Positions 21,119 through 22,880 of a stretch of DNA of 64,000 nt are shown here, piece by piece (positions within the stretch are counted from its first letter, which is position 1; the number at the start of each line of letters is the position of its first letter). The stretch comes from Escherichia coli (GTDB taxonomy: Bacteria; Pseudomonadota; Gammaproteobacteria; Enterobacterales; Enterobacteriaceae). The DNA is taken from the NCBI RefSeq assembly GCF_016026235.1, contig NZ_CP065613.1; one strand, written 5' to 3'. The position numbers and the translations under genes were made by a program. The notes under the pieces are model-generated. The model ran no database searches. It saw only the letters and a program-made list of their open reading frames with translations, and had not been told where the DNA came from.

Positions 21119-21153
21119 GCCTGGTATTAAAAGTGCTGGCAAACGCAAAACTG

Positions 21154-21250
21154 CCTGATGCGCTACGCTTATCAGGCCTACGTGGCTCATGCAATATATT
21201 GAATTTGCACGATCTTGTAGGCCGGATAAGGCGTTCACGCCGCATCCGGC
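21154..21250. repeat. REP/BIME element (two inverted REP units)
   Basis: GCCTGATGCGCTACGCTTATCAGGCCTAC and GTAGGCCGGATAAGGCGTTCACGCCGCATCCGGC, canonical enterobacterial REP sequences in opposite orientation, between convergent srmB and yfiE. Confidence 0.85.
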
Positions 21251-21280
21251 ATGAATAAAGCGCACTTTGTCGACAAGTTA

Positions 21281-21294
21281 AATGCCGGGTTTAA
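21281..21294. repeat. 14-bp direct repeat AATGCCGGGTTTAA, right copy
   Basis: Exact match to 21105..21118. Confidence 0.8.
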
Positions 21295-21308
21295 TCCCGA
21301 CATTATTT

Positions 21309-22190
21309 TTATCCAGCCACAAAACTCTCTTCAACACACTGAATAAAAGTGTGCATCGCCGGGCTAACCGCTTTTCCAGCATGGTGTGCGCACATGGCCG
21401 TAATGGTCTGCGACTGTTCGCCAAAAGGCAATTCAATTAATTCTCCGCTCTCAAGCTCTTTTTCCACCGCAAAGCGGGGCAAGTAACTGACACCGATATT
21501 CGCCGCGACACAACGTTTGATACTTTCAATGCTTAACAGCTCAATGGTGTTTTCCACCGTGATCCGCCGCTGACGCAGCGTGCTCTCAAATATCTGCCGG
21601 AAGACACATTGCGGTTCGTTGATAATAAAGCTACAGGCGTTATGTCTTCCCGGCTCAGTAAAATCGACATCTGCAATTTGCGGTGAAGCCACCAGCACCA
21701 GCGATTGTTCACCCAACTCTCGTCGGTTCAGGGCATCATCATTCCCTACGCGATAAAAGACGCCGACATCGGCCTCATCATTCAGTAGCGCATCACGGAT
21801 CACGTAACAGTTCAGCGACTGCAACGATAAACGCACTTTTGGTGCGCGTTGCCGAAAACGCTGCAACACCTGCGGCATTCGGTAAGAGAGCAACGTTTCG
21901 CCCGAAACAACGCGTAGTTCCCCGTCCGGATCTGACTCCTTTTTGGCAGCCTCACGAAGCGTATCCATCACTCGGGTAAGTTCATAAATGTGCGGCAGCA
22001 ACTTTTTTCCTTCGCGGGTAAGGCACATCCGTCGGCCAATTTTCTCAAATAACTGGACTGAAAACTCCTGCTCAATCTGCTGAATATGAAAAGTCACCGT
22101 CGATTGTGTACAGCACAATTTTTGCGAAGCTCGCAAAAAGGAACCCTCTTCCACCACGGTTTTAAGCGTAATAAAACGGCGCAGATCCAT
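21309..22190 (-). CDS. yfiE: LysR-family transcriptional regulator
   Basis: Track ORF 21309..22235; start set at MDLRRFITLKTVVEEGSF (293 aa); N-terminal LysR HTH. Confidence 0.88.
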   Translation of the reverse strand: MDLRRFITLKTVVEEGSFLRASQKLCCTQSTVTFHIQQIEQEFSVQLFEKIGRRMCLTREGKKLLPHIYELTRVMDTLREAAKKESDPDGELRVVSGETLLSYRMPQVLQRFRQRAPKVRLSLQSLNCYVIRDALLNDEADVGVFYRVGNDDALNRRELGEQSLVLVASPQIADVDFTEPGRHNACSFIINEPQCVFRQIFESTLRQRRITVENTIELLSIESIKRCVAANIGVSYLPRFAVEKELESGELIELPFGEQSQTITAMCAHHAGKAVSPAMHTFIQCVEESFVAG

Positions 22191-22292
22191 AACCCCAAAC
22201 CTATCGAAAATATCGAATCTAGAATATAAAAACATTCATTTTTTTAAATGTTCCGTGTCGGGTACTGTCTACCAAAACAGAGGAGATAACAA

Positions 22293-22880
22293 GTGACACC
22301 GACCCTTTTAAGTGCTTTTTGGACTTACACCCTGATTACCGCTATGACGCCAGGACCGAACAATATTCTCGCCCTTAGCTCTGCTACGTCGCATGGATTT
22401 CGTCAAAGTACCCGCGTGCTGGCAGGGATGAGTCTGGGATTTTTGATTGTGATGTTACTGTGTGCGGGCATTTCATTTTCACTGGCAGTGATTGACCCGG
22501 CAGCGGTACACCTTTTGAGTTGGGCGGGGGCGGCATATATTGTCTGGCTGGCGTGGAAAATCGCCACCAGCCCAACAAAGGAAGACGGACTTCAGGCAAA
22601 ACCAATCAGCTTTTGGGCCAGCTTTGCTTTGCAGTTTGTGAACGTCAAAATCATTTTGTACGGTGTTACGGCACTGTCGACGTTTGTTCTGCCGCAAACA
22701 CAGGCGCTAAGCTGGGTAGTTGGCGTCAGCGTTTTGCTGGCGATGATTGGGACGTTTGGCAATGTGTGCTGGGCGCTGGCGGGGCATCTGTTTCAGCGAT
22801 TGTTTCGCCAGTATGGTCGCCAGTTAAATATCGTGCTTGCCCTGTTGCTGGTCTATTGCGCGGTACGCATTTTCTATTAA
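22293..22880 (+). CDS. eamB: Cysteine/O-acetylserine exporter (LysE/RhtB family)
   Basis: 195-aa ORF, GTG start preceded by AGGAG; six hydrophobic segments; matches EamB (YfiK). Confidence 0.92.
   Translation: MTPTLLSAFWTYTLITAMTPGPNNILALSSATSHGFRQSTRVLAGMSLGFLIVMLLCAGISFSLAVIDPAAVHLLSWAGAAYIVWLAWKIATSPTKEDGLQAKPISFWASFALQFVNVKIILYGVTALSTFVLPQTQALSWVVGVSVLLAMIGTFGNVCWALAGHLFQRLFRQYGRQLNIVLALLLVYCAVRIFY

What the first reader, a model, noticed from the sequence alone, without database searches (positions are those of the whole stretch)
21309..22880. Divergent LysR regulator (yfiE) and cysteine/O-acetylserine exporter (eamB)
This is the classic LysR arrangement, with the regulator divergently transcribed from its target across a ~100-bp region. 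That predicts YfiE controls eamB, possibly in response to a sulfur-amino-acid intermediate, though I am not aware of a defined effector.
Basis: inference. Interest (0 to 1): 0.3.

Follow-up and report, generated by a model that had tools for sequence, protein, structure and literature searches.

The report
Known E. coli yfiE–eamB regulator–exporter pair
This is the already annotated E. coli gene pair yfiE (a LysR-type regulator) and eamB (a cysteine/O-acetylserine exporter); that the regulator binds between the two genes is published, and comparison of about 50 species adds a conserved candidate operator, but the signal it senses is still unknown.

Summary
Window 21309-22190 (-) is yfiE and 22293-22880 (+) is eamB/yfiK, separated by 102 bp, in a non-K-12 E. 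coli.

A 2021 ChIP-exo study (PMC8464067) reported a YfiE peak between yfiE and eamB and proposed that YfiE controls the exporter. I found no test of eamB expression and no known effector.

What I add:
- All 52 genomes with a YfiE homologue of at least 56% identity, from Escherichia to Vibrio, Aeromonas and Photobacterium, carry an eamB homologue or its remnant divergently upstream. Where both starts could be placed (51), the spacer is 102-113 bp, although the flanking genes differ in most genera.
- The spacer holds two conserved blocks: an ATC-N9-GAA (T-N11-A) box about 66 bp upstream of the predicted eamB start site, and AAAACATTC-N2-TTTTTT with AACATT/AATGTT arms over the -35 region.
- It also holds an invariant TANNNT -10, a GGAG ribosome-binding site and the GTG start.
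- The string AAACAT-N11-AATGTTCC recurs exactly at a second published YfiE site (dhaK-dhaR).

The most likely mechanism is a LysG-LysE-type module: YfiE bound at both blocks activates eamB when induced and represses itself. Direction and effector are inferred. Interest is low.

The parts
21309..22190 (-). yfiE (b2577), LysR-type transcriptional regulator, 293 aa, start ATG at 22190
   Evidence: PF00126 (2.3e-16) and PF03466 (5.8e-46). 99% identical to MG1655 YfiE. No NCBIfam equivalog reaches its cut-off.
22191..22292 (.). 102-bp divergent control region, 33% G+C
   Evidence: Identical to MG1655. The spacer is 102-113 bp in the 51 orthologous loci where both gene starts could be placed.
22203..22217 (.). 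Block 1: ATCGAAAATATCGAA, an ATC-N9-GAA / T-N11-A box (T22204...A22216), about -66 from the predicted eamB start site and 13-27 bp upstream of the yfiE ATG. Candidate LTTR recognition site and autorepression site.
   Evidence: Conserved columns in the alignment of 52 distinct spacers and in information content over 27 non-redundant ones. The position-weight matrix built from the orthologues scores highest here in the whole 64-kb window, which is circular because the window sequence is in the matrix (21.7; next best 17.3).
22229..22252 (.). Block 2: AAAACATTCATTTTTTTAAATGTT. Inverted arms AACATT (22231-22236) and AATGTT (22247-22252) flank a conserved T-tract and overlap the -35 region of the predicted eamB promoter. 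Candidate YfiE operator (activation site).
   Evidence: It is the most conserved part of the spacer, and the inverted repeat was found. The matrix score is 35.6 against a next-best 8.7 in 64 kb. AAACAT-N11-AATGTTCC recurs exactly in the dhaK-dhaR intergenic region, a second published YfiE ChIP-exo site.
22263..22268 (+). Predicted eamB -10 hexamer TACTGT (TANNNT). The predicted start site is about 22275. The hexamer 17 bp upstream is TTTTTT, so there is no usable -35.
   Evidence: TANNNT is present at this alignment position in 27 of 27 non-redundant orthologous spacers. The consensus promoter scan found no canonical sigma-70 promoter in the spacer, as expected for an activator-dependent promoter.
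22280..22285 (+). eamB ribosome-binding site GAGGAG, 7 nt before the GTG start
   Evidence: A GGAG core is conserved in nearly all orthologues, followed by GTG, ATG or TTG.
22293..22880 (+). eamB (yfiK, b2578), LysE/RhtB-family cysteine/O-acetylserine exporter, 195 aa
   Evidence: The export function comes from Franke et al. 2003, read only as summarised in PMC10821248.
22888..22915 (.). 12-bp G+C-rich hairpin between the convergent eamB and grcA genes. The T-run lies on the grcA side and the A-run on the eamB side.

Best explanation
yfiE-eamB is a two-gene regulator-exporter cassette of the LysG-LysE type. YfiE, a LysR-type regulator, sits on the 102-bp shared control region. It probably contacts both the T-N11-A box at 22203-22217 (about -66) and the AACATT-N10-AATGTT / T-tract element at 22229-22252 (about -46 to -24); the two centres are about 31 bp, or three helical turns, apart. 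The eamB promoter has an invariant -10 but no -35, so it should be nearly silent until YfiE changes conformation on binding its inducer and recruits RNA polymerase. The same binding overlaps the yfiE leader/promoter and should repress yfiE. Shown: the gene identities, the layout, YfiE occupancy at the locus in vivo (published), and conservation of the cassette and of the DNA blocks. Inferred: that the blocks are the YfiE sites, that eamB depends on YfiE, that the effect is activation, and that the inducer is an EamB substrate or a related thiol metabolite.
For: Family assignments are secure. ChIP-exo found a YfiE peak at yfiE/eamB with signal/noise 12.5, the strongest of its 4 sites. No RNA polymerase was recorded there in glucose minimal medium, which fits a bound but uninduced activator (PMC8464067). 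All 52 genome loci with a YfiE homologue of at least 56% identity carry an eamB homologue or its remnant divergently upstream; 51 allow the spacer to be measured, at 102-113 bp. The flanking genes srmB, grcA, ung and yfiC are kept only in Escherichia, Citrobacter, Cedecea and two unclassified Enterobacteriaceae isolates. Among the 32 non-syntenic loci clustered, YfiE (32 of 32) and EamB (31 of 32) are the only widely shared proteins. The reciprocal check from EamB homologues in Obesumbacterium and Kosakonia finds a divergent 291-aa LysR gene 112-113 bp away. A 40%-identical homologue in Arcobacter is likewise divergent from a LysE-family gene, with a 112-bp spacer. YfiE and EamB identities to E. 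coli fall in parallel across genomes, r = 0.89. Conserved blocks and an invariant TANNNT are seen. The 14 specified bases AAACAT-N11-AATGTTCC are identical at the dhaK-dhaR YfiE site; chance in a 227-bp region on both strands is roughly 2e-6. A CRISPRi knock-down of yfiE changes dhaK, dhaL and gldA, which independently ties that dyad to YfiE.
Against: I found no experiment showing that eamB mRNA depends on yfiE, and the CRISPRi preprint's main text never mentions eamB. After conversion from NC_000913.2 numbering, the tabulated ChIP-exo interval maps to about window 22169-22203. That is over the yfiE start codon: it abuts block 1 and lies about 50 bp from the centre of block 2, rather than on it. 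The right arm of the block-2 dyad is only moderately conserved outside the Escherichia, Citrobacter, Serratia, Kluyvera and Rahnella groups. I found no conserved -10 for yfiE. The dhaK-dhaR region also gave a peak for an unrelated regulator, YeaM, so it may be ChIP-prone. SdiA has been reported to affect eamB 2.4-fold (PMC11311028), so other inputs exist. A galaxy of ChIP-seq data for YfiE could not be modelled by a sequence motif.
Confidence: 0.65

Rival explanations
1. YfiE represses eamB. Its best-conserved site (block 2) covers the -35/spacer region of the eamB promoter, so bound YfiE blocks RNA polymerase and the inducer releases it.
For: Block 2 spans about -46 to -24 of the predicted promoter. 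In glucose medium YfiE is bound and no RNA polymerase is recorded at the site.
Against: The hexamer 17 bp upstream of the invariant -10 is TTTTTT in essentially all species. A promoter that only needed derepression would be expected to keep a recognisable -35. From established knowledge, most LysR-type regulators of divergent exporter genes (LysG-LysE, ArgP-argO) are activators.
Confidence: 0.15
2. Adjacency without control of eamB. The binding in the spacer only autoregulates yfiE, and YfiE's real targets lie elsewhere (dhaKLM, gldA, mdtL and many others).
For: The tabulated ChIP-exo interval sits on the yfiE start codon rather than on the eamB promoter. CRISPRi of yfiE changed more than 300 genes, with dha and gldA highlighted and eamB absent from the main text.
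Against: The divergent pairing and the spacer length are kept from Escherichia to Vibrio and even Arcobacter while all other neighbours change. That is hard to explain without functional coupling. The most conserved non-coding block lies on the eamB promoter side.
Confidence: 0.12
3. The conserved blocks are sites for a different, widely shared regulator or are purely structural (an A/T-tract bend or UP-like element), not YfiE operators.
For: The most invariant part of block 2 is an asymmetric AAAACATTC-N2-TTTTTT rather than a clean dyad. The ChIP-exo interval does not coincide with it.
Against: The blocks travel with the cassette into unrelated genomic contexts. The dyad recurs exactly at another YfiE ChIP-exo site.
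Confidence: 0.08

Closest known systems
LysG-LysE of Corynebacterium glutamicum (archetype of a LysR-type regulator divergent from a LysE-superfamily amino-acid exporter; from established knowledge)
   Same: A LysR-type regulator of about 290 aa is transcribed divergently from a roughly 200-aa LysE-superfamily exporter across a short shared control region. The regulator is expected to sense the exported compound and switch the exporter on as a safety valve.
   Different: YfiE is not an ArgP/LysG-family member: it scores 61.9 bits against that model's 197-bit cut-off. The effector and the dependence of eamB on YfiE are unknown. EamB belongs to the RhtB branch and exports cysteine/O-acetylserine rather than basic amino acids.
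CefR-CefA of Pantoea ananatis (cysteine-inducible cysteine efflux pump with an adjacent regulator; Takumi and Nonaka 2016, read only as summarised in PMC9231021 and PMC5423876)
   Same: It is a cysteine exporter whose gene lies next to its own regulator and is induced by cysteine.
   Different: Homology could not be tested. The original paper is not held, and no Pantoea sequence appeared among the listed top 120 YfiE or EamB homologues or the 53 genome loci. The parallel is functional only.
PunR(YdhB)-PunC and YnfL-YnfM of E. coli (LysR regulators divergent from transporter genes, characterised or proposed in the same ChIP-exo series, PMC8464067)
   Same: A former y-gene LysR regulator has a ChIP-exo peak in the spacer shared with a divergent transporter gene, and its function was inferred from that neighbour.
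   Different: Those transporters are MFS pumps, not LysE-family. PunR has follow-up expression data; I found none for YfiE.

Membership tests
LysR-type transcriptional regulators (YfiE) | N-terminal winged helix-turn-helix of the LysR type (PF00126) | tested here: met
   residues 3-62, E = 2.3e-16, 59.9 bits against a cut-off of 26.6.
LysR-type transcriptional regulators (YfiE) | C-terminal LysR substrate/effector-binding domain (PF03466), total length about 300 aa | tested here: met
   residues 87-289, E = 5.8e-46; 293 aa. The nearest solved structures are all LysR-family proteins.
LysR-type transcriptional regulators (YfiE) | Divergent transcription from a target gene, with a T-N11-A box near -65 of the target promoter | tested here: met
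   The layout is confirmed. A conserved ATC-N9-GAA box (T22204/A22216) lies about 66 bp upstream of the start site predicted from the invariant -10. Caveats: the bare T-N11-A motif is at chance frequency here, and the start site is predicted rather than measured.
LysR-type transcriptional regulators (YfiE) | Binds its own/target spacer in vivo | not testable with these tools
   Published ChIP-exo peak at yfiE/eamB with signal/noise 12.5 (PMC8464067). I did not re-analyse it.
LysR-type transcriptional regulators (YfiE) | Effector-dependent activation of the target and negative autoregulation | not testable with these tools
   I found no expression data for eamB or yfiE in a yfiE mutant.
Named LysR subfamilies (ArgP/LysG, CysB, YeiE, YafC, CynR and others) | Score above the NCBIfam curated cut-off | tested here: not met
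   the best hit is 135 bits against a cut-off of 250 (selenium-associated LysR). ArgP/LysG scores 61.9 against 197, and CysB 73 against 402. YfiE is its own orthologous group.
LysE superfamily / RhtB family exporter (EamB) | LysE-type translocator domain over the whole roughly 200-aa protein | tested here: met
   PF01810, residues 14-194, 55.5 bits against a cut-off of 25.6.
LysE superfamily / RhtB family exporter (EamB) | Orthology to the characterised cysteine/O-acetylserine exporter YfiK | tested here: met
   equivalog NF007653, 411 bits against a cut-off of 193. The gene is annotated eamB in RefSeq E. coli genomes.
LysE superfamily / RhtB family exporter (EamB) | Demonstrated export of cysteine and O-acetylserine | not testable with these tools
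   Franke et al. 2003, read only as summarised in PMC10821248. Export was seen on overexpression, and the deletion mutant had no phenotype.
LysG-LysE-type regulator-exporter module | Regulator and exporter inherited together as a divergent pair | tested here: met
   52 of 52 loci with at least 56% YfiE identity carry eamB or its remnant, plus the Arcobacter homologue with a LysE-family partner. The context is otherwise variable. The reciprocal check is positive.
LysG-LysE-type regulator-exporter module | The exported substrate is the regulator's inducer | not testable with these tools
   No effector is known for YfiE.

The most novel reading that the evidence does not exclude
YfiE may not be a classical small-ligand LysR regulator. 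It could instead be a thiol-based sensor of cysteine/persulfide overload or of reactive carbonyls such as dihydroxyacetone or methylglyoxal. It carries 9 cysteines (3.1%). C27, C128 and C227 are invariant in 48 of 48 orthologues, C195 and C285 are present in 47, and C267 in 45. C128 aligns with BenM T128, a pocket residue in BenM as far as I recall. Its published and motif-supported targets join a cysteine/O-acetylserine exporter to the dihydroxyacetone kinase operon. On this reading the cassette would link thiol export to carbonyl stress.
Probability: 0.1. Interest if true: 0.5.

Novelty: already known. Interest (0 to 1): 0.15.

Why it matters
EamB is used in industrial cysteine production and is one of several cysteine exporters whose physiological role is unclear. 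Knowing its inducer and operator would explain when E. coli vents cysteine or O-acetylserine, and would give a ready-made biosensor and promoter. The gene pair and the regulatory hypothesis are already in the literature. The value here is limited to a concrete, testable operator (22203-22217 and 22229-22252), a predicted promoter, and evidence that the cassette is ancient and mobile as a unit.

Tried and rejected
- **CefR-CefA homology.** I tried to test whether Pantoea CefR-CefA is homologous to YfiE-EamB. The original papers (PMC4836233, and PMC142868 for YfiK) are not held, and no Pantoea sequence appeared among the listed top 120 homologues of either protein or the 53 genome loci. The question is left open.
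- **Other ChIP-exo sites.** The block-1 and block-2 matrices and a relaxed AACAT/ATGTT dyad search found nothing at the two other published YfiE sites (tnaB-mdtL and upstream of yffQ), so the motif does not explain all four peaks.
- **Canonical promoter.** The consensus sigma-70 scan found no promoter in the spacer.
- **yfiE promoter.** I found no conserved -10 for yfiE on the - strand, so the yfiE promoter remains unplaced.
- **Bare T-N11-A.** The motif occurs at chance frequency, so it was rejected as evidence by itself.
- **308-aa ORF.** The longer ORF from 22235 was rejected as the yfiE start.
- **A third conserved gene.** Clustering of flanking ORFs found none; a MetE-like ORF is present in only 5 of 32 non-syntenic loci.
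- **Solved structures.** The nearest is at E = 6e-23 (a Rubisco-operon regulator) and gives no clue to the ligand.
- **Co-decay.** Both genes appear broken in Providencia, but I did not pursue this because several of those assemblies are low-quality drafts.

Full report
**1. Observation**

- A 293-aa ORF runs on the - strand from the ATG at 22190 to the stop at 21309-21311.
- A 195-aa ORF runs on the + strand from the GTG at 22293 to the stop at 22878-22880.
- The two are separated by 102 bp, at 22191-22292.

Pfam assigns HTH_1 plus LysR_substrate to the first ORF and LysE to the second. The NCBIfam equivalog for the cysteine/O-acetylserine transporter scores 411 bits against a cut-off of 193, while no named LysR subfamily reaches its cut-off for YfiE.

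Most of the stretch is present in 5419 of 5426 complete E. coli genomes, where it is annotated yfiE, eamB and grcA. The window is a non-K-12 strain, but its spacer is identical to MG1655 b2577/b2578. Window coordinate equals NC_000913.3 coordinate minus 2,693,130.

A longer 308-aa ORF from 22235 is not the real start. Spacer lengths in orthologues differ by non-multiples of three, and conservation begins at MDLRRF.

**2. What is already published**

Gao et al. 2021 (PMC8464067) tagged YfiE and found four ChIP-exo sites. The strongest (signal/noise 12.5) was described as a divergent peak between yfiE and eamB, and the authors concluded that YfiE is likely in control of the exporter. No RNA polymerase was recorded at that site in glucose minimal medium.

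The other three sites are:
- the dhaK-dhaR spacer;
- upstream of yffQ;
- the tnaB-mdtL gap.

A 2025 preprint reports that CRISPRi of yfiE changes more than 300 genes, including dhaK, dhaL and gldA. eamB does not appear in its main text. A ChIP-seq compendium could not fit a sequence model for YfiE.

I found no experiment on eamB expression in a yfiE mutant and no known effector. SdiA was reported to change eamB 2.4-fold in an avian strain. EamB/YfiK export activity was seen on overexpression, and the deletion mutant has no phenotype (Franke 2003, as summarised in PMC10821248).

So both the layout and the regulatory hypothesis are already known. What remains open is the dependence of eamB on YfiE, the direction of control and the signal.

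**3. Comparative evidence added here**

*Conserved pairing.* A pattern scan of one genome per species returned 53 loci encoding YfiE homologues.
- All 52 with at least 56% identity carry an eamB homologue, or its remnant, immediately upstream on the opposite strand.
- These span Escherichia, Citrobacter, Klebsiella, Kluyvera, Cedecea, Yersinia, Serratia, Rahnella, Pectobacterium, Aeromonas, Vibrio and Photobacterium.
- In the 51 loci where both gene starts could be placed, the spacer is always 102-113 bp.
- The remaining 40%-identical homologue, from Arcobacter, is also divergent from a LysE-family gene that is 25% identical to EamB. Its spacer is 112 bp.

*Variable surroundings.* The E. coli neighbours srmB, grcA, ung and yfiC are kept only in Escherichia, Citrobacter, Cedecea and two unclassified Enterobacteriaceae isolates. 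Among the 32 non-syntenic loci whose flanking ORFs I clustered, YfiE (32 of 32) and EamB (31 of 32) are the only widely shared proteins.

*Reciprocal check.* Starting from EamB homologues in Obesumbacterium and Kosakonia, the divergent neighbour is again a 291-aa LysR gene 112-113 bp away.

*Parallel divergence.* YfiE and EamB identities to E. coli fall together across genomes, r = 0.89.

The pair therefore behaves as one inherited unit.

**4. Anatomy of the spacer**

An alignment of 52 distinct spacers, with information content computed over 27 non-redundant ones, shows five conserved elements.
- **Block 1, 22203-22217.** ATCGAAAATATCGAA is an ATC-N9-GAA box, with T22204 and A22216 nearly invariant.
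- **Block 2, 22229-22252.** AAAACATTCATTTTTTTAAATGTT is the most conserved stretch.
  - The arms AACATT and AATGTT extend to AACATTC-N8-GAATGTT in Serratia, Kluyvera and Rahnella.
  - The right arm is weaker in Yersinia, Aeromonas and Vibrio.
- **A TANNNT hexamer at 22263-22268.** It is present in 27 of 27 representatives.
- **A GGAG ribosome-binding site.**
- **The GTG start.**

Taking the hexamer as the eamB -10 puts the start site near 22275. Block 1 then lies at about -66 and block 2 at about -46 to -24, with centres about 31 bp apart. The hexamer 17 bp upstream of the -10 is TTTTTT, so there is no -35, and the consensus scan sees no canonical promoter.

This is the standard layout of an activator-dependent LysR target promoter, with a recognition site near -65 and an activation site over -35. 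Block 1 is also only 13-27 bp from the yfiE ATG, which suits autorepression.

The bare T-N11-A motif is at chance frequency in this A+T-rich spacer (8 found, 9.6 expected). Conservation carries the argument, not the motif.

**5. Independent link between block 2 and YfiE**

The dhaK-dhaR spacer of MG1655 is another published YfiE site. It contains AAACAT-N11-AATGTTCC, which matches the eamB element at all 14 specified bases and in spacing. It lies at NC_000913.3 1250967-1250991 and overlaps the converted ChIP-exo interval. Chance for this in a 227-bp region on both strands is roughly 2e-6. The CRISPRi effect on dhaK and dhaL agrees.

The motif does not occur at the yffQ or tnaB-mdtL sites.

**6. 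Caveats**

- The YfiE ChIP-exo coordinates are in NC_000913.2 numbering: its dha site falls in the spacer only in that numbering.
- After conversion, with an offset of about 1976-1979 bp that I estimated from memory of the two IS insertions, the yfiE/eamB interval maps to about window 22169-22203. That is over the yfiE start codon, abutting block 1 but about 50 bp from the centre of block 2.
- A LysR tetramer footprint of 50-70 bp could reconcile the two, but this needs re-mapping of the reads.
- The dha spacer also gave a peak for an unrelated regulator, YeaM, so it may be ChIP-prone.
- I found no conserved yfiE -10.

**7. Mechanism and rivals**

Best explanation (0.65): this is a LysG-LysE-type safety-valve cassette. 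YfiE occupies the spacer constitutively, represses itself, and on binding an inducer activates the -35-less eamB promoter.

| Rival | Confidence | Main argument against |
|---|---|---|
| YfiE represses eamB through block 2 | 0.15 | The missing -35 is universal |
| Adjacency with autoregulation only, real targets elsewhere | 0.12 | The pairing is preserved from Escherichia to Arcobacter |
| The blocks belong to another factor or are structural | 0.08 | The dyad recurs at the dha YfiE site |

The effector is unknown. Cysteine, O-acetylserine or a related thiol is the natural guess, by analogy with LysG-LysE and with cysteine-inducible CefR-CefA of Pantoea. I could not test homology to CefR-CefA.

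**8. A side observation**

YfiE is cysteine-rich, with 9 cysteines (3.1%), and most are conserved.

| Residue | Orthologues with Cys (of 48) |
|---|---|
| C27, C128, C227 | 48 |
| C195, C285 | 47 |
| C267 | 45 |
| C26 | 42 |

C128 aligns with BenM T128, which I recall as an effector-pocket residue. Together with the dha link, this leaves room for a thiol- or electrophile-sensing mechanism. I rate that at about 10%.

**9. Verdict**

Novelty is "already known" and interest is low (0.15). The useful output is a concrete operator and promoter prediction, plus the evidence that the cassette is ancient.

Noticed in passing
L002 2468-2492 (NC_000913.3 1250967-1250991), dhaK-dhaR intergenic region of MG1655: There is an exact AAACAT-N11-AATGTTCC here, identical in arms and spacing to the eamB block 2 (window 22230-22254), at a second published YfiE ChIP-exo site. 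A further ATGTTTC-N5-GAAACAT palindrome lies just upstream. This suggests that YfiE also acts on the dihydroxyacetone kinase operon.
   Followed up: partly
window 14098-14119: A second perfect AACATT-N10-AATGTT dyad lies in the spacer between lepA (12195-13994, -) and rseC (14192-14671, -). That gives two exact copies at this spacing in 64 kb, where about 0.06 are expected. It is not a reported YfiE site.
   Followed up: no
window 21312-22190 (YfiE protein): YfiE has nine cysteines (3.1%). C27, C128 and C227 are invariant in 48 of 48 orthologues, and C195, C285 and C267 are nearly so. C27 lies in the helix-turn-helix signature CTQSTVTF, and C128 aligns with BenM T128. This is unusual for a cytoplasmic LysR regulator.
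   Followed up: partly
window 21130-21300: REP-type palindromic repeats (GCCTGATGCGCTACGCTTATCAGGCCTAC and GGCCGGATAAGGCGTTCACGCCGCATCCGGC) lie between the convergent srmB and yfiE genes. They explain why the BLAST query hit a median of 35 places per E. coli genome.
   Followed up: no
window 21449-21540 (3' part of yfiE): Substitutions relative to MG1655 cluster here (about 17 in about 90 bp, against almost none elsewhere in the gene), although the protein stays 99% identical. It looks like a recombination patch.
   Followed up: no
window 22293-22880 versus NZ_OW968111.1: One complete E. coli genome carries an IS1 insertion inside eamB. Protein databases also hold YfiE length variants of 256-341 aa, so the pair is not under absolute constraint in every strain.
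   Followed up: no
L053 2292-3882 (Arcobacter sp. MAG): A 40%-identical YfiE homologue keeps the CTQSTVTFHIQQLE signature and is divergent from a LysE-family gene across 112 bp. A second LysE-family gene lies just downstream (3919-4551). An ACAATTCGATTTTTTAGAT string resembling block 2 lies next to the regulator's start.
   Followed up: partly
L046, L054, L055 (Providencia alcalifaciens, P. burhodogranariea, Candidatus Symbiopectobacterium): In the two Providencia genomes both genes appear disrupted. In the symbiont, yfiE is frameshifted while eamB aligns end to end. This may be co-decay, but assembly quality was not checked.
   Followed up: no
Supplementary binding-site tables of PMC8464067: The coordinates appear to mix reference versions. 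The YfiE sites fit NC_000913.2 numbering, whereas the YeaM dhaK site fits NC_000913.3 numbering. Anyone reusing these tables should re-map them.
   Followed up: partly
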